A DNA stretch of 64,000 nucleotides from the human T2T-CHM13v2.0 reference genome, Homo sapiens. The notes under the pieces were generated by a model. That model was not told where the DNA came from. It worked only from the letters and a program-made list of their open reading frames with translations, and did not search any database. Location: NCBI RefSeq assembly GCF_009914755.1, contig NC_060931.1, one strand, 5' to 3'. Within the stretch, counting starts at the first letter, position 1. The number at the start of each line of letters is the position of its first letter. The position numbers and the translations under genes were made by a program. Shown here in pieces: positions 23,794-64,000 of the stretch.

Positions 23794-25805
<2,012 letters not shown>

Positions 25806-26033
25806 AAAATGTTTATTATTTTAAGAAATGAATTGGAAAGGAGGAGCCAAGACGGCCGAATAGGAACAGCTCAGGTCTACAGCTCCCAGCCTGAGCAACG
25901 CAGAAGACGGGGGATTTCTGCATTTCCATCTGAGATACGGGGTTCATCTCACTAGGGAGTGCCAGACAGTGGGCGCAGGTCAGTGGGTGCACGCACCGTG
26001 AGCGAGCCGAAGCAGGGCGAGGCATTGCCTCAC

Positions 26034-26288
26034 TCAGGAAGCGCAAGGGGTCAGGGAGTTCCCTTTCCTAATCAAAGAAAGGGGTGACGGACGGCACCTG
26101 GAAAATCGGGTCACTCCCACCCGAATACTGCGCTTTTCCGATGGGCTTAAAAAATGGCGCACCACGAGATTATATCCCGCACGTGGCTCGGAGGGTCCTA
26201 CCCCCACGGAGTCTCGCTGATTGCTAGCACAGCAGTCTGAGATCAAACTGCAAGGCGGCAGCCAGGCGGGGGGAGGGGCGCCCACCAT
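26034..26288 (-). CDS. ORF0: L1 antisense ORF0, uninterrupted, 84 aa
   Basis: MVGAPPPAWLPPCSLISDCCASNQRDSVGVGPSEP...VGVTRFSRC matches primate L1 ORF0; ATG at 26288. Confidence 0.75.
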   Translation of the reverse strand: MVGAPPPAWLPPCSLISDCCASNQRDSVGVGPSEPRAGYNLVVRHFLSPSEKRSIRVGVTRFSRCRPSPLSLIRKGNSLTPCAS

Positions 26289-26500
26289 TGCCCAGGCTTG
26301 ATTAGGTAAACAAAGCAACTGGGAAGCTCCAACTGGGTGGAGCCCACCACAGCTCAAGGAGGCCTGCCTGCCTCTGTAGGCTCCACCTCTGGGGGCAGGG
26401 CACAGACAAACAAAAAGACAGCAGTAACCTCTGCAGACTTAAATGTCCCTGTCTGACAGCTTTGGAGAGAGCAGTGGTTCTCCCAGTACGCAGCTGGAGA

Positions 26501-26637
26501 TGAAATTCTGGGTTGAAAATTCTTTTCTTTAAGAATGTTGAATATTGGCCCCCACTCTCTTCTGGCTTGTAGGGTTTCTGCTGAGAGATCCGCTGTTAGT
26601 CTGTTGGGCTTCCCTTTGAGGGTAACCCGACCTCAAA
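26501..26637 (-). other. Templated insertion: antisense L1 ORF1 fragment inside the L1 5'UTR
   Basis: 26501-26633 is the reverse complement of 27581-27713 (4 mismatches); absent from the sister L1 (gagatctgagaacgggcag at about 60887-60905). Confidence 0.97.
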
Positions 26638-26870
26638 GGCAGACTGCCTCCTCAAGTGGGTCCCTCACCCCTGACCCCCGAGCAGCCTAACTGGCAGGCA
26701 CCCTCCAGCAGGGGCACACTGACACCTCACACTGCAGGGTACTCCAACAGACCTGCAGCTGAGGGTCCTGTCTGTTAGAAGGAAAACTAACAAACAGAAA
26801 GGACATCCACAACAAAAACCCGTCTGTACATCACCATCATCAAAGACCAAAAGTAGATAAAACCACAAAG

Positions 26871-27923
26871 ATGGGGAAAAAAACAGAACAGAAAAACTGG
26901 AAACTCTAAAAATCAGAGCGACTCTCCTCCTCCAAAGGAACGCAGCTCCTCACCAGTAACGGAACAAAGCTGGACGGAGAATGACTTTGACAAGCTGAGA
27001 GAAAAGGCTTCAGTCGATCAAATTACTCTGAGCTATGGGAGGACATTCAAACCAAAGGCAAAGAAGTTGAAAACTTTGAAAAAAATTTAGAAGAATGTAT
27101 AACTAGAATAACCAATACAGAGAAGTGCTTAAAGGAGCTGATGGAGCTGAAAACCAAGGCTCGAGAACTACGTGAGGAATGCAGAAGCCTCAGGAGCTGA
27201 TGCGATCAACTGGAAGAAAGGGTATCAGCAATGGAAGATGAAATGAATGAAATGAAGCGAGAAGGAAAGTTTAGAGAGAAAAGAATAAAAAGAAACGAGC
27301 AAAGCCTCCAAGAAATATGGGACTATGTGAAAAGACCAAATCTACGTCTGATTGGTGTACCTGAAAGTGATGGGGAGAATGGAACCGAGTTGGAAAACAC
27401 TCTGCAGGATGTTATCCAGGAGAATTTCCCCAATCTAGCAAGGCAGGCCAACGTTCAGATTCAGGAAATACAGAGAACGCCACAAAGATACTCCTCGAGA
27501 AGAGCAACTCCAAGACACATAATTGTCAGATTCACCAAAGTTGAAATGAAGGAAAAAATGTTAAGGGCAGCCAGAGAGAAAGGTCGGGTTCCCCTCAAAG
27601 GGAAGCCCATCAGACTAACAGCGGATCTCTCGGCAGAAACCCTACAAGCCAGAAGAGACTGGGGGCCAATATTCAACATTCTTAAAGAAAAGAATTTTCA
27701 ACCCAGAATTTCATATCCAGCCAAACTAAGCTTCATAAGTGAAGGAGAAATAAAATACTTTACAGACAAGCAAATGCTGAGAGATTTTGTCACCACCAGG
27801 CCTGCCCTAAAAGAGCTCCTGAAGGAAGGGCTAAACATGGAAAGGAACAACCGGTACCAGCCACTGCAAAATCATGCCAAAATAGAAAGACCATCGAGAC
27901 TAGGAAGAAACTGCATCAACTAA
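26871..27923 (+). pseudogene. L1 ORF1p (RNA-binding chaperone), disrupted
   Basis: ATG at 26871 with an extra A in the A-run, a 1-nt deletion near 27003, TGA at 27198-27200; normal stop lost (aaaatagaaaga), so it reads through to 27923. Confidence 0.93.
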
Positions 27924-27950
27924 CGAGCAAAATCACCAGCTAACATCATA

Positions 27951-31774
<3,824 letters not shown>

Positions 31775-34700
31775 ACAATGAGATTGCATGGACACAGGAA
31801 GGGGAACATCACACTCTGGGGACTGTTTTGGGGTGGGGGGAGGGGGGAGGGATAGCATTGGGAGATATACCTAATGCTAGATGACGAGTTAGTGGGTGAA
31901 GCACACCAGCATGGCACATGTATATGTATGTAACTAACCTGCACAATGTGCACATGTACCCTAAAACTTAAAGTATGATAATAAAAAAATAAAAAAATAA
32001 TAAAAAAAGAAATGTATTGGAAAATTATACTGCTAAACCTTACTTAGTGAGTGATATTTTCTCACTCTGCATCCTTAGAGACCATTATTTCTTTACATTG
32101 AATCAAAAATAACATGATTTACTCCTATTTCCTAATATATGCATCTCATTGATTTGACCATATAGGTATACTCTGCCCTAGCAGGGCTCCTAAAATATAC
32201 TGCCATTAGGTGGGTGCTACAAAGTTGAAAAAGACGTGCAACTTACTAGCTTGTGCAGAGGCAAGTCACTGATTGAGTCTGCCACAATTACTGCTCTAAT
32301 AGAGGGGCTACAAATTACTATTGGAGCAAAGAGGTGGGAGGATGTAGTAAGTAAATGTCTCATACAGAAATGCCCTTTTCACTGGTGTTTCAGCTGCTCA
32401 TCCTGTTCATCTTTCTCAAGGCATTACAAGTGCAGAAGTCTGAGTGAAGACAAAAAAGCCTAAAATTAAATATACACTGATTTAGCAAAAGCCAATAAAA
32501 TATTATTTTCAGCTGAAAGTCTCACAGACTACTTCATGGATGAAGTATCAGTTGGGCTGGGCTCACTGAAGGTTGTACTAAACTGCACCTGATAATTCAC
32601 ATTGTATATTAATTGGACACTAATATGTGCCAAAGGATAGATATGAAATGCTTTTTATATTTGAAAACAATTATGAAATATATTTTTGGAAGGTACATCT
32701 ATGTATGTAGGAAGATGTTATATAAATGATTTAGAGAAACAAAGAACACAGTTATGAGACAAATCCATATTTAGCATATTTGAGAAATCCTTGGCCTTAA
32801 AATCCCTAATGGCAGTCAGCATTTTTGGAGTAGGTTCAAATACTTAAATATCACATCTTCTTTGTGCTTAAAAAAATACAAAGAAAACCCTGTGTTTGGA
32901 TCTACCTTTTCTCTATTACTAGAAATTGTATGCATCAATAGATCAGTATAGGTTTTTGTTGTAGTTGTTTTCTAACTCCCTTTAGAAGGTGACAGAAATT
33001 AAAGGCTGGAGATCTCCTTGCCTATTGACTCACAAAGTTTGCAATGTCAGAAATCATTATTTATAATTAATGCCAGTGTACAACCAAGCATTCTCCTCAA
33101 CCAGCGGCTGTCTGTAACCATAAAGAAATTTTAGGGAAGCCCTACATGAAATCTATCTTATAGATTTCACACAACACCTGTGAGTCAGCCTTGCCCAGGG
33201 CTATGTCATTTCACTTCCTATCTGTCTGAAAAATGTGCCTCACTGAGAGGGCATAATACTTTGGAAGGGCAGAGTATTTATAACTGAAGACACGCCATAT
33301 AGCTTCACATGTTAGCATGGTGACGATATCAATTTTTTGGCATCTAAACTTTGAATAGTGAAAGAATACAGAGAATGTATTACTTGGGTACTAAAGTCTG
33401 CTCTAAAGGATGTAAGATAAATCAAGATTTGGAATTGGATGTTAGAATCTCTTATGGTTAACTATTGCTATTTTAAAATGGGAAATATGTCTGAATTAGG
33501 AATTGGGTAAATAGTCACATAATGGAAAAGTTTGCTTGTGAACTTATATCTGACTTTGTTACTTATACTCAGTACTTTTCTTTGCCCTAAATTCTCATTT
33601 TTGCAGTCCTTTAAATATGCTATAAAATACATGTTTTTCAAGTCTTTCTGGATAGGAAACTTTCCTAAGTTTATGGAACATTAAATGTCTGGATAATTTC
33701 TGAGATTCCAGACTGTGTTTCAATAACTGTAGTTATAAATACATAAGCATATTATAACTTAACATATTTTGGTTATTATTAGAATTATAAAATATGTGCC
33801 AACAACCTAAGATGGTTTTAGAAAAATGTTTCAATGGACAAAAAGGCATGAACAATATGACATTTTTTCACCTGCAACCAACACATTCGCCACTTACATT
33901 ACCTTTCCTATTGGTCACATCTTCCTATATAAGGTGATATATATACACATATTAACTTTTACAACAAAACGTGTTATTTTTGGTGTATGTGGGGGTGGGG
34001 GAAAAGCAGGCCCATGTGATCTCTACCATTTCTTTCAGCATTAAAATTCTGTGACTGTGATGTAAACTACAGTATTTTTGTCCATTAGAAAAGCAGATTT
34101 GTGAACTTATTATTACAGAATTATTAATCAGACCCTAAAGACTCTAGAATTCCAACATAACAGAATAAAATTTAGGTTTTGAGCATGTTGAATATATCTG
34201 ATTTTAAAAATTGAAACTAGAGGGTTTAAGATTTTATTGATCCCTCTACCATCTGTCCTTTTAAAACATTTTAATGGGTTCTCGGGTTCTACATTTCAGT
34301 GTATCTCTTCTGTTAAGATTAGCTTTATCTCAATGAAATCGGGTTTGTGATGCTACTTTTTCTTATATCTAGAATTTTTAATAGAAAATTTCTAGGAATT
34401 TCTAAGTTGTTCTAAATGATTTTTATCATGGTTGGCATTTGGTAAATGCACAATGAAGATTTGTTGAATTAATATGAACTTATTTTCCTATAGTTGTCTT
34501 TTACTTATTTCTACCGCACGGTCTACATGACTGATAATGAAACTGTGTCACTATAAATACAAGAGTAGTATCTGTGGTTAATGTGATATTAGACCCTCAA
34601 CAGGAATACACAGACAACTGATAGACTTCAATCAAAGCTTTAAAGTTAAGCATGTTCTTAAACTAGGTGAGGAGTCATGAAGATGGAAAATAGAAAAGTA

Positions 34701-60217: not shown

Positions 60218-61133
60218 GGGGGGAGGAGCCAAGATGGCCGAATAGGAACAGCTCAGGTCTACAGCTCCCAGCCTGAGCGACGCAGAAGACGGGTGATTTC
60301 TGCATTTCCATCTGAGGTACCGGGTTCATCTCACTAGGGAGCGCCAGACAGTGGGCGCAGGTCAGTGGGTGCGCGCACAGTGCGCGAGCCGAAGCAGGGC
60401 GAGGCATTGCCTCACTCGGGAAGCGCAAGGGGTCAGGGAGTTCCCTTTCCTAATCAAAGAAAGGGGTGACAGACGGCACCTGGAAAATCGGGAAAATCGG
60501 GTCACTCCCACCCGAATACTGCGCTTTTCCGACGGGCTTAAAAAACAGCGCACCACGAGATTATATCCGCACCTGGCTCGGAGGGTCCTACGCCCACGGA
60601 GTCTCGCTGATTGCTAGCACAGCAGTCTGAGATCAAACTGCAAGGCGGCAGCGAGGCTGGGGGAGGGGCGCCCGCCATTGCCCAGGCTTGATTAGGTAAA
60701 CAAAGCAGCCTGGAAGCTCCAACTGGGTGGAGCCCACCACAGCTCAAGGAGGCCTGCCTGCCTCTGTAGGCTCCACCTCTGGGGGCAGGGCACAGACAAA
60801 CAAAAAGACAGCAGTAACCTCTGCAGACTTAAATGCCCCTGTCTGACAGCTTTGAAGAGAGCAGTGGTTCTCCCAGTGCGCAGCCAGAGATCTGAGAACG
60901 GGCAGACTGCCTCCTCAAGTGGGTCCCTCACCCCTGACCCCCGAGGAGTTTAACTGCGAGGCACCCTCCAGCAGGGGCACACTGACACCTCACACTGCAG
61001 GGTACTCCAACAGACCTGCAGCTGAGGGTCCTGTCTGTTAGAAGGAAAACTAACAAACAGAAAGGACATCCACACCAAAAACTCATCTGTACATCACCAT
61101 CATCAAAGACCAAAAGTAGATAAAACCACAAAG

Positions 61134-62150
61134 ATGGGGAAAAAACAGAACAGAAAAACTGGAAACTCTAAAAATCAGAGCTCCTCTCCTCCTCCAAAGG
61201 AACGCAGCTCCTCACCAGCAACGGAACAAAGCTGGACAGAGAATGACTTTGACGAGCTGAGAGAACAAGGCTTCAGATGATCAAATTACTCTGAGCTACG
61301 GGAGGACATTCAAACCAAAGGCAAAGAAGTTGAAAACTTTGAAAAAAATTTAGAAGAATGTATAACTAGAATAACCAATACAGAGAAGTGCTTAAAGGAG
61401 TTGATGGAGCTGAAAACCAAGGCTCGAGAACTACGTGAAGAATGCAGAAGGCTCAGGAGCCGATGTGATCAACTGGAAGAAAGGGTATCAGCAATGGAAG
61501 ATGAAATGAATGAAATGAAGCGAGAAGGAAAGTTTAGAGAAAAAAGAATAAAAAGAAATGAGCAAAGCCTCCAAGAACTACGGGACTATGTGAAAAGACC
61601 AAATCTACGTCTGACTGGTGTACCTGAAAGTGATGGGGAGAATGGAACCAAGTTGGAAAACACTCTGCAGGATATTATCCAGGAGAATTTCCCCAATCTA
61701 GCAAGGCAGGCCAACGTTCAGATTCAGGAAATACAGAGAACGCCACAAAGATACTCCTCGAGAAGAGCAACTCCAAGACACATAATTGTCAGATTCACCA
61801 AAGATGAAATGAAGGAAAAAATGTTAAGGGCAGCCAGAGAGAAAGGTCGGGTTCCCCTCAAAGGGAAGCCCATCAGACTAACAGCGGATCTCTCGGCAGA
61901 AACCCTACAAGCCAGAAGAGAGTGGGGGCCAATATTCAACATTCTTAAAGAAAAGAATTTTCAACCCAGAATTTCATATGCAGCCAAACTAAGCTTCAAA
62001 AGTGAAGGAGAAATAAAATACTTTACAGACAAGCAAATGCTGAGAGATTTTGTCACCACCAGGCCTGCCCTAAAAGAGCTCCTGAAGGAAGCGCTAAACA
62101 TGGAAAGGAACAACCGGTACCAGCCGCTGCAAAATCATGCCAAAATGTAA
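61134..62150 (+). pseudogene. L1 ORF1p with one premature stop
   Basis: ATG at 61134, CGA>TGA at 61278-61280, native stop at 62150 (NHAKM*). Confidence 0.9.
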
Positions 62151-62186
62151 AGACCATCGAGACTAGGAAGAAACTGCATCAACTAA

Positions 62187-64000
<1,814 letters not shown>

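What the first reader, a model, noticed from the sequence alone, without database searches (positions are those of the whole stretch)
26493..27721. Full-length L1 whose 5'UTR carries an antisense copy of ORF1: a built-in hairpin L1
Seen: 26501-26633 is the reverse complement of ORF1 27581-27713 (129/133 identical) and replaces 9 nt (ctgagaacg) present in the sister L1. Inference: any sense transcript from this promoter folds into a roughly 133-bp duplex with a roughly 950-nt loop that encloses the ORF1 start. That duplex is a potential substrate for Dicer, ADAR or dsRNA sensors. Small RNAs from it would match a conserved ORF1 segment of all young L1s, so the locus could act as a trans-silencer, analogous to maize Mu killer. 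Function is not demonstrated.
Basis: partly seen in the sequence, partly recalled or inferred. Interest (0 to 1): 0.8.

Follow-up and report, generated by a model that had tools for sequence, protein, structure and literature searches.

The report
Inverted ORF1 patch in dead L1
One old, broken L1 retrotransposon carries a 136-base backwards piece of L1 gene sequence in its leader, most likely a scar of DNA break repair, which would make its RNA fold into a long hairpin but shows no sign of having a function.

Summary
Window 26493-26633 is the reverse complement of 27581-27721: 141 nt with 5 mismatches, 129/133 in the core. It sits in the 5'UTR of a full-length L1 that has a target-site duplication. 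It replaces the 9 nt that the sister L1 keeps.

Both junctions are single-copy in this genome, against 1,537 copies with the uninterrupted site.

The junctions look like templated break repair. There is 8/9-nt microhomology on the left, and a short filler completing a 9-bp mini-palindrome on the right. The patch meets all four published criteria for endonuclease-independent L1 insertions.

At the only lineage-diagnostic site inside the repeat, the patch has the common base (1,307 copies). It lacks the rare base of this element's own ORF1 (3 copies). I therefore favour a template from another L1 over self-copying.

The element is coding-dead. The arms have drifted at about the neutral rate. Both RNA strands are predicted to form the stem. 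No evidence supports a trans-silencer role. Ordinary origin, low interest.

The parts
25840..32006 (+). Full-length L1 (L1PA2/PA3-grade; no repeat library was at hand for a formal assignment) with an A-rich tail. Lies in a DGKB intron, antisense to the gene.
   Evidence: 5' end and tail read. About 3.6% mean distance to 12 ordinary copies. DGKB strand taken from the hub annotation supplied with the finding.
25823..25839 (.). 5' copy of the target-site duplication (17 nt).
   Evidence: 16 of 17 identical to 32007-32023.
32007..32023 (.). 3' copy of the target-site duplication.
26493..26501 (+). Left-junction microhomology. The native 5'UTR GCTGGAGAT matches the ORF1-antisense GCTGGATAT at 8 of 9 positions.
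   Evidence: 1,537 genomic copies carry this 9-mer followed by the uninterrupted site.
26502..26633 (-). Antisense L1 ORF1 patch (arm A core). With the microhomology it forms the 141-nt arm 26493-26633.
26634..26639 (+). Filler CAAAGG; the last GG may be original 5'UTR. It completes a 9-bp mini-palindrome (26613-26621 with 26631-26639, 9-nt loop), the pattern expected from snap-back synthesis.
26871..27923 (+). ORF1 remnant. Four in-frame stops in the first about 115 codons, with +1 and -1 indels at about 26877 and 27003 relative to the sister.
27581..27721 (+). Arm B, the resident ORF1 segment. It carries the rare lineage base C at 27591 and a private C at 27659.
27951..31774 (+). ORF2 remnant, broken into pieces of 215, 639, 159, 83 and 80 aa.
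60220..64000 (+). Sister L1 (runs off the window) with the uninterrupted 5'UTR site. It is the closest relative of the element found here: 2.47-2.49% divergence and about 21 shared derived states.

Best explanation
The patch is a one-off scar of DNA break repair inside a resident, now dead, L1. A break in the 5'UTR lost 9 nt. I infer the following steps. The left 3' end annealed through an 8/9-nt microhomology to a sense-strand L1 ORF1 template and was extended for about 132 nt. The new end then snapped back on itself and added a few bases. It was finally joined to the right end through a GG overlap. The template was most likely not this element's own ORF1. It was more likely another L1's nucleic acid, probably L1 RNA copied by a reverse transcriptase. 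That makes it a non-classical (endonuclease-independent) L1 insertion of the Sen et al. 2007 type, which happened to land backwards in an L1 about 950 nt from the homologous segment. The resulting 141-nt inverted repeat is an accident. Any transcript through it, whether L1 sense RNA or DGKB intron RNA, should form a long imperfect duplex. That duplex is a plausible ADAR substrate, but there is no sign of a selected function. Shown: the structure, its single-copy status, the junction anatomy, the diagnostic-site state, the broken ORFs and the predicted folds. Inferred: the break, the nature of the template, the order of steps, and any RNA consequence.
For: Single copy: the right junction (up to 2 mismatches) and a 34-nt left junction (up to 3 mismatches) each hit only this locus. 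By contrast, 1,537 copies have the exact uninterrupted 29-mer. Junctions: 8/9-nt microhomology on the left (about 1e-4 by chance, my arithmetic), a 9-nt target deletion, and a 4-6-nt filler completing a 9-bp palindrome with a 9-nt loop. There is no TSD and no poly(A) around the patch, and the target is not TTTT/A-like. These match all four criteria of Sen et al. 2007 and their common extras (PMC1920257, passages read). In that study 18 of 21 loci had target deletions, 15 of 21 had extra nucleotides, inserts were 34-4410 bp, junctions showed microhomology, and 3 of 21 lay in pre-existing L1s. Non-self template: at 27591 the element's ORF1 has C. That state is found in 3 exact 34-mers genome-wide: element, sister and one copy 370 kb away. 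The patch has A, found in 1,307 copies; G and T occur once each. Element and sister share about 21 derived states interleaved along 3.8 kb, so C looks inherited. A self-copy would then need a reversion at exactly that site, about 0.75% given 3 substitutions in 133 nt (my arithmetic). Age: the patch differs from the common state at 2 of 133 sites. The element has 27-40 private changes in about 3,679 sites. So the event is old, and its exact 55-mer exists nowhere else, which argues against a misassembled read. Enzymology: ORF2p shows template switching, DNA-directed synthesis and priming from short hairpins (PMC10830420, passages).
Against: The non-self argument rests on a single site. The template lies only about 950 nt away in the same element. 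That is what a local template switch would predict, and it would be a coincidence for a captured foreign fragment. My rough estimate is that well under 1% of such insertions would land this way. Rare variants are shared oddly among neighbouring L1s in this region. A later short conversion could therefore have put C into this element's ORF1. No orthologous empty site could be examined, so the pre-event state is inferred from paralogous copies only. Whether the template was RNA or DNA cannot be told from the sequence.
Confidence: 0.5

Rival explanations
1. Self-copy by local template switching. A polymerase replicating or repairing this element jumped to the element's own ORF1 region 950 nt away. 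It copied 132 nt of the opposite strand and returned 9 nt beyond its point of departure. The polymerase could be a replicative or repair enzyme after integration, or the L1 reverse transcriptase copying its own nascent cDNA during integration.
For: The source is close and within the same element. Microhomology sits at the switch points and a snap-back filler is present. Template-switch mutations are known to create reverse-complement copies and hairpins (PMC7954356, passages; PMC8794818, abstract in listing only). ORF2p can switch templates and copy DNA. Arm divergence of 4/133 (3.0%) is close to element-sister divergence of 2.5%, so the event is about as old as the insertion.
Against: The patch lacks the element's lineage base at 27591. 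The sister has that base but not the patch. A self-copy therefore needs either an exact reversion (about 0.75%) or a later conversion that carried C between element and sister without carrying the patch, even though shared states lie 14 nt and 27 nt from the patch edges. The described short-range events act over tens to hundreds of nucleotides. Here the distance is 950-1,230 nt.
Confidence: 0.3
2. One reading: the locus is a natural trans-silencer. Hairpin RNA from it is diced into small RNAs that repress young L1s, as Mu killer does for MuDR in maize.
For: The stem is predicted on both strands, with perfect runs of 55, 26, 21 and 18 bp. It matches a widely conserved ORF1 segment: 1,307 exact 34-mers. 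DGKB transcription would supply the antisense hairpin without needing the L1 promoter (hub annotation). Mu killer is likewise a partial inverted duplication read through from a flanking gene (PMC3440606, abstract).
Against: No expression, editing or small-RNA data were available. The arms carry uncompensated mismatches at about the neutral rate. It is single-copy and sits in a coding-dead element. The stem is 141 bp of coding sequence, against the roughly 4-kb Mu killer hairpin that includes the promoter-bearing terminal repeat. From recalled knowledge, not checked here: younger L1 families went on amplifying after elements of this age, and mammalian somatic cells process long dsRNA into siRNAs poorly.
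Confidence: 0.03
3. Assembly artefact: a chimeric join in the assembly.
For: None found. L1-rich sequence is in general hard to assemble.
Against: The arms differ at 5 sites. The patch's exact 55-mer occurs nowhere else in the genome, so it is not a misplaced copy. The junctions carry a coherent repair signature. Raw reads could not be examined.
Confidence: 0.02
4. Inherited subfamily feature: the patch was already in a source L1 and spread by retrotransposition.
Against: The 8 other loci fetched are all ordinary ORF1 antisense variants. Stricter junction searches find only this locus. The closest relative, the sister, lacks the patch. A source that left this one offspring cannot be excluded.
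Confidence: 0.01

Closest known systems
Non-classical (endonuclease-independent) L1 insertions at DNA breaks (Sen et al. 2007, PMC1920257, passages read; Morrish et al. 2002, recalled)
   Same: An internal L1 fragment lacking the 3' end, poly(A) and TSD. A small target deletion, a few extra nucleotides, junction microhomology and a non-EN-like target. The size lies within the reported 34-4410 bp. Three of their 21 loci also lay inside older L1s.
   Different: Here the fragment landed in inverted orientation about 950 nt from its homologue, creating a long hairpin. The pre-insertion state is inferred from paralogous copies, not from an orthologous empty site. A DNA template cannot be excluded.
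Short-range template-switch mutations, four-point model (Walker et al. 2021, PMC7954356, passages; Monttinen and Loytynoja, PMC8794818, abstract in listing only)
   Same: A reverse-complement copy of nearby sequence replaces a short stretch and creates an inverted repeat or hairpin in one event.
   Different: Described events act over tens to hundreds of nucleotides. Here the distance is 950-1,230 nt and the copied piece is 132 nt. The copy does not match the local template at the one diagnostic site.
Twin-priming 5' inversion of L1 (Ostertag and Kazazian 2001, recalled; mentioned in PMC1920257)
   Same: An inverted L1 segment within one insertion event.
   Different: Twin priming puts the inverted part at the 5' end of a truncated insertion. 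Here the element is full-length and the inverted piece is flanked on both sides by direct 5'UTR.
Mu killer of maize (PMC3440606, abstract)
   Same: A partial inverted duplication of a transposon that can be read through from a flanking gene to give hairpin RNA.
   Different: Mu killer's hairpin is about 4 kb, includes the terminal repeat with the promoter, and its siRNAs and heritable silencing are demonstrated. Here the stem is 141 bp of ORF1 only, and nothing is demonstrated.
Inverted-repeat Alu pairs as ADAR1/MDA5 dsRNA substrates (PMC8118290, abstract in listing only)
   Same: An intronic inverted retroelement pair giving an intramolecular duplex of 100-300 bp.
   Different: The sequence is L1-derived, both arms lie within one element, and no editing data were seen.

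Membership tests
Non-classical (endonuclease-independent) L1 insertion, criteria of Sen et al. 2007 | L1 fragment truncated at its 3' end by at least 20 bp | tested here: met
   The patch covers only the ORF1 positions homologous to 27582-27713, several kb from the L1 3' end.
Non-classical (endonuclease-independent) L1 insertion, criteria of Sen et al. 2007 | No target-site duplication of any length | tested here: met
   The patch flanks are contiguous 5'UTR minus 9 nt, which is a deletion and not a duplication.
Non-classical (endonuclease-independent) L1 insertion, criteria of Sen et al. 2007 | No poly(A) tail on the fragment | tested here: met
   Neither end of 26502-26637 carries an A or T run at the junction.
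Non-classical (endonuclease-independent) L1 insertion, criteria of Sen et al. 2007 | Target deviates from the TTTT/A endonuclease site | tested here: met
   By inspection only: the junction reads GGAGAT/G on the strand that would be nicked. No divergence score was computed.
Non-classical (endonuclease-independent) L1 insertion, criteria of Sen et al. 2007 | Pre-insertion state verified in an outgroup genome | not testable with these tools
   No ape genome was available. The empty state is seen only in paralogues: the sister and 1,537 exact copies.
Short-range template-switch mutation (four-point model) | The inserted stretch is the reverse complement of nearby sequence in the same locus | tested here: inconclusive
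   129/133 identity to the local ORF1, but the patch lacks the local lineage base at 27591.
Short-range template-switch mutation (four-point model) | Template within tens to hundreds of nucleotides | tested here: not met
   947 nt lie between the arms. Scale taken from PMC7954356.
Twin-priming L1 inversion | Inverted segment forms the 5' end of a 5'-truncated insertion | tested here: not met
   The element starts at the normal 5' end and direct 5'UTR lies on both sides of the patch.
Mu killer-type hairpin silencer | Inverted duplication of part of an autonomous element | tested here: met
   The 141-nt inverted repeat, although it is probably not a duplication of this element's own sequence.
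Mu killer-type hairpin silencer | Hairpin transcript, derived small RNAs and trans-silencing | not testable with these tools
   Only folding predictions were possible. Rfam found no known RNA family in 25000-33000.

The most novel reading that the evidence does not exclude
The accidental hairpin is transcribed, either within DGKB pre-mRNA in neurons or from the L1 promoter in germ or early embryonic cells. It is then processed into ORF1-matching small RNAs or heavily edited dsRNA that measurably dampens young L1s in trans. That would make it a natural, fixed 'killer' locus in a primate genome.
Probability: 0.03. Interest if true: 0.75.

Novelty: new member of a known kind. Interest (0 to 1): 0.2.

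Why it matters
As it stands this is one more example of how break repair or template switching rearranges transposons. It has a neat by-product: a single event made a 141-bp near-perfect RNA stem inside one element and inside a brain-expressed gene's intron. Its practical value is as a uniquely mappable L1-derived dsRNA source, because the junctions and three private bases allow unique mapping. That could be used to test whether long L1 hairpins are edited, sensed or diced in human cells. It would matter much more only if trans-silencing were shown.

Tried and rejected
(1) Subfamily feature. The 18 exact hits of the left-junction 20-mer looked like many copies. The 8 other loci fetched are all ORF1 antisense with a T>G change. 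Stricter searches find only this locus. Rejected.

(2) A recalled lead: that the size gain might be the 129-bp 5'UTR segment tied to ZNF93 binding in older L1PA families. This was recalled and no paper was consulted. It was dropped because the junctions are single-copy and the net gain is 127 nt.

(3) Hypervariability of site 27591. The counts are A 1,307, C 3, G 1 and T 1. Rejected.

(4) A donor lineage for the patch. Its two private states occur together nowhere else. The T>A state occurs alone in 2 of the copies listed, and the CpG change in most of the 116 other one-mismatch hits, of which 100 of 117 rows were listed. No donor was identified.

(5) Local conversion patch between element and sister. 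Shared and private states are interleaved over the whole 3.8 kb compared, so there is no block structure. The 3' 2.3 kb was not compared with ordinary copies.

(6) The 'GT' marker at 28729-30 as a lineage marker. The two extra carriers are not close relatives, at 3.5% and 7.7%. Not usable.

(7) Rfam scan of 25000-33000: no family at gathering score.

(9) Subfamily assignment and absolute dating were not attempted beyond divergence counts, because no repeat library or ape genome was at hand.

Full report
**1. Observation**

Window 25500-32500 holds one long inverted pair. The arms are 26493-26633 and 27581-27721, 141 nt, 96% complementary, with 947 nt between them. There are five mismatches. 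Four lie in the 133-nt core, at 27591, 27610, 27632 and 27659. One lies at 27715, inside a 9-nt stretch where the 5'UTR's own sequence resembles the ORF1 antisense.

The sister L1 (from about 60220) has the uninterrupted site GAGAT-CTGAGAACG-GGCAGACTG. In the element, 26502-26637 (136 nt) replaces those 9 nt, a net gain of 127 nt.

**2. The host element**

The host is a full-length L1 at 25840-32006 on the + strand. It has an A-rich tail and a 17-nt target-site duplication at 25823-25839 and 32007-32023, 16 of 17 identical. It is coding-dead.
- The ORF1 ATG frame has four stops in about 115 codons.
- It has +1 and -1 indels relative to the sister.
- ORF2 is split into pieces of 215, 639, 159, 83 and 80 aa.

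The element lies antisense to DGKB, according to the hub annotation.

**3. One locus or a family?**

It differs from plain ORF1 antisense by one base. The 8 other loci that were fetched are all ordinary ORF1 antisense, 0.58-1.00 identical to the ORF1 flank and 0.13-0.21 to the 5'UTR flank. The other 9 hits were not inspected.

A 34-nt left junction (up to 3 mismatches) and the 22-nt right junction (up to 2 mismatches) each hit only this locus. The exact uninterrupted 29-mer occurs 1,537 times. The tool warns that repeat counts are lower bounds. So this is a single-locus event in this genome.

**4. Junction anatomy**

- Left: the native GCTGGAGAT matches the ORF1-antisense GCTGGATAT at 8 of 9 positions.
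- Right: the ORF1 antisense stops at 26633. Then CAAAGG follows before the 5'UTR resumes at CAGACTG.
- This filler completes CCTCAAAGG (26631-26639). That is the reverse complement of CCTTTGAGG (26613-26621), with a 9-nt loop between them.

This pattern is what a 3' end produces when it folds back on itself, primes on 2 nt and copies a few bases. My inferred sequence of events is microhomology-primed synthesis, then snap-back, then rejoining through GG with loss of 9 nt.

**5. Whose ORF1 was copied?**

At 27591 the element's ORF1 has C and the patch has the equivalent of A. Exact 34-mer counts genome-wide are:

| Base at 27591 | Exact copies |
|---|---|
| A | 1,307 |
| C | 3 (element, sister, one copy 370 kb away) |
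| G | 1 |
| T | 1 |

I compared the element with 12 ordinary copies. These were taken from 20 loci spread down the listing; the 8 that were 4.8-14.8% distant were left out as older. Element and sister share about 21 derived states, interleaved with 27-40 private ones each, along 3.8 kb. They differ by 2.47-2.49%, against a mean of 3.28% among the ordinary copies.

So C looks inherited by both element and sister. A self-copy should then carry C. Rescuing self-copying needs one of two things:
- an exact reversion, about 0.75% given 3 substitutions in 133 nt (my arithmetic); or
- a later transfer of C between element and sister that did not carry the patch, although shared states lie 14 and 27 nt from the patch edges.

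I therefore favour a non-self template. This rests on one site.

**6. Fit to known kinds**

Sen et al. 2007 (PMC1920257, passages) define non-classical L1 insertions by four criteria: 3' truncation, no TSD, no poly(A), and a non-EN-like target. They also report:
- inserts of 34-4410 bp;
- target deletions in 18 of 21 loci;
- extra nucleotides in 15 of 21;
- junction microhomology;
- 3 of 21 loci inside older L1s.

The patch meets all four criteria. The fifth step, an orthologous empty site, could not be checked.

ORF2p's template switching, DNA-directed synthesis and hairpin priming (PMC10830420, passages) could account for each step. A repair polymerase could do so as well.

The rival is a local template switch (PMC7954356, passages). 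It fits the proximity of the template, but not the scale (tens to hundreds of nt) and not site 27591. Twin priming does not fit, because direct 5'UTR flanks the patch on both sides.

**7. Age**

The patch differs from the common state at 2 of 133 sites, one of them a CpG change. Arm B differs at 2 sites, one lineage and one private. The element's private load is 27-40 in about 3,679 sites. Of the 42 'private' sites listed, two (26529, 26531) are alignment artefacts inside the patch and were dropped.

The event is therefore old, roughly as old as the insertion. No absolute date is given. The patch's exact 55-mer is unique in the genome, which argues against misassembly.

**8. RNA consequence**

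Both strands are predicted to form the long stem in minimum-free-energy and centroid structures. No shuffles were available at this length.
- Sense RNA: 136 Watson-Crick pairs, 1 G-U and 4 mismatches.
- Antisense RNA: 136 Watson-Crick pairs and 5 mismatches.
- Perfect runs are 55, 26, 21, 18, 10 and 6 bp.

Rfam has nothing here. DGKB intron RNA would contain the hairpin regardless of the L1 promoter. It is a plausible editing substrate, but that is inference only.

**9. Function**

Nothing supports trans-silencing. The mismatches are uncompensated and accumulate at about the neutral rate. The locus is single and the element dead. The Mu killer comparison (PMC3440606, abstract) is structural only. 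The idea is not excluded, and I give it 3%.

**10. Verdict**

This is a real and correctly described structure. Its origin is an ordinary kind of event: a break-repair patch, most likely a captured non-self L1 fragment, otherwise a local template switch. No function is indicated. Interest is low.

Supplements of the cited papers were not consulted.

Noticed in passing
window 27591 and 28729-28730; loci L011, L032, L033, L034: Ultra-rare L1 variants are shared only by neighbouring, independently inserted copies on this chromosome. 27591-C is found in 3 copies within 370 kb, and the only G-state copy lies 470 kb away. The adjacent double change GT at 28729-30 is found in 4 copies within 3.4 Mb, all on the + strand. 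One of them belongs to a clearly older family (7.7% distant), while all 20 sampled copies carry AC. Each copy has its own flanks. The shared states are isolated within 12-34 nt. Very short-tract exchange between neighbours is one possibility, but this remains unexplained.
   Followed up: partly
window 27978 (genome listing): The 117 genome copies carrying C at 27978 look locally clustered. By eye, at least 17 pairs lie within 200 kb among the 100 listed places, for example four within 71 kb on contig 12. My arithmetic gives about 0.9 pairs expected under uniform spread. Ordinary copies also cluster, and segmental duplications were not excluded.
   Followed up: no
window 25853: A private T>C change in the element's first 20 bases falls in what I recall as the YY1-binding box of the L1 promoter. 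The sister and the other four copies examined keep T. The motif identity is recalled and was not checked.
   Followed up: no
window 60480-60500: The sister L1 has a 9-nt tandem duplication in its 5'UTR (reads gggaaaatcgggaaaatcggg) that the element lacks.
   Followed up: no
L032 (G000:C7:13937600-13945100): This full-length L1 is nested in an older L1 with a clear 15-nt target-site duplication. A few non-L1 bases precede its slightly shortened 5' end.
   Followed up: no
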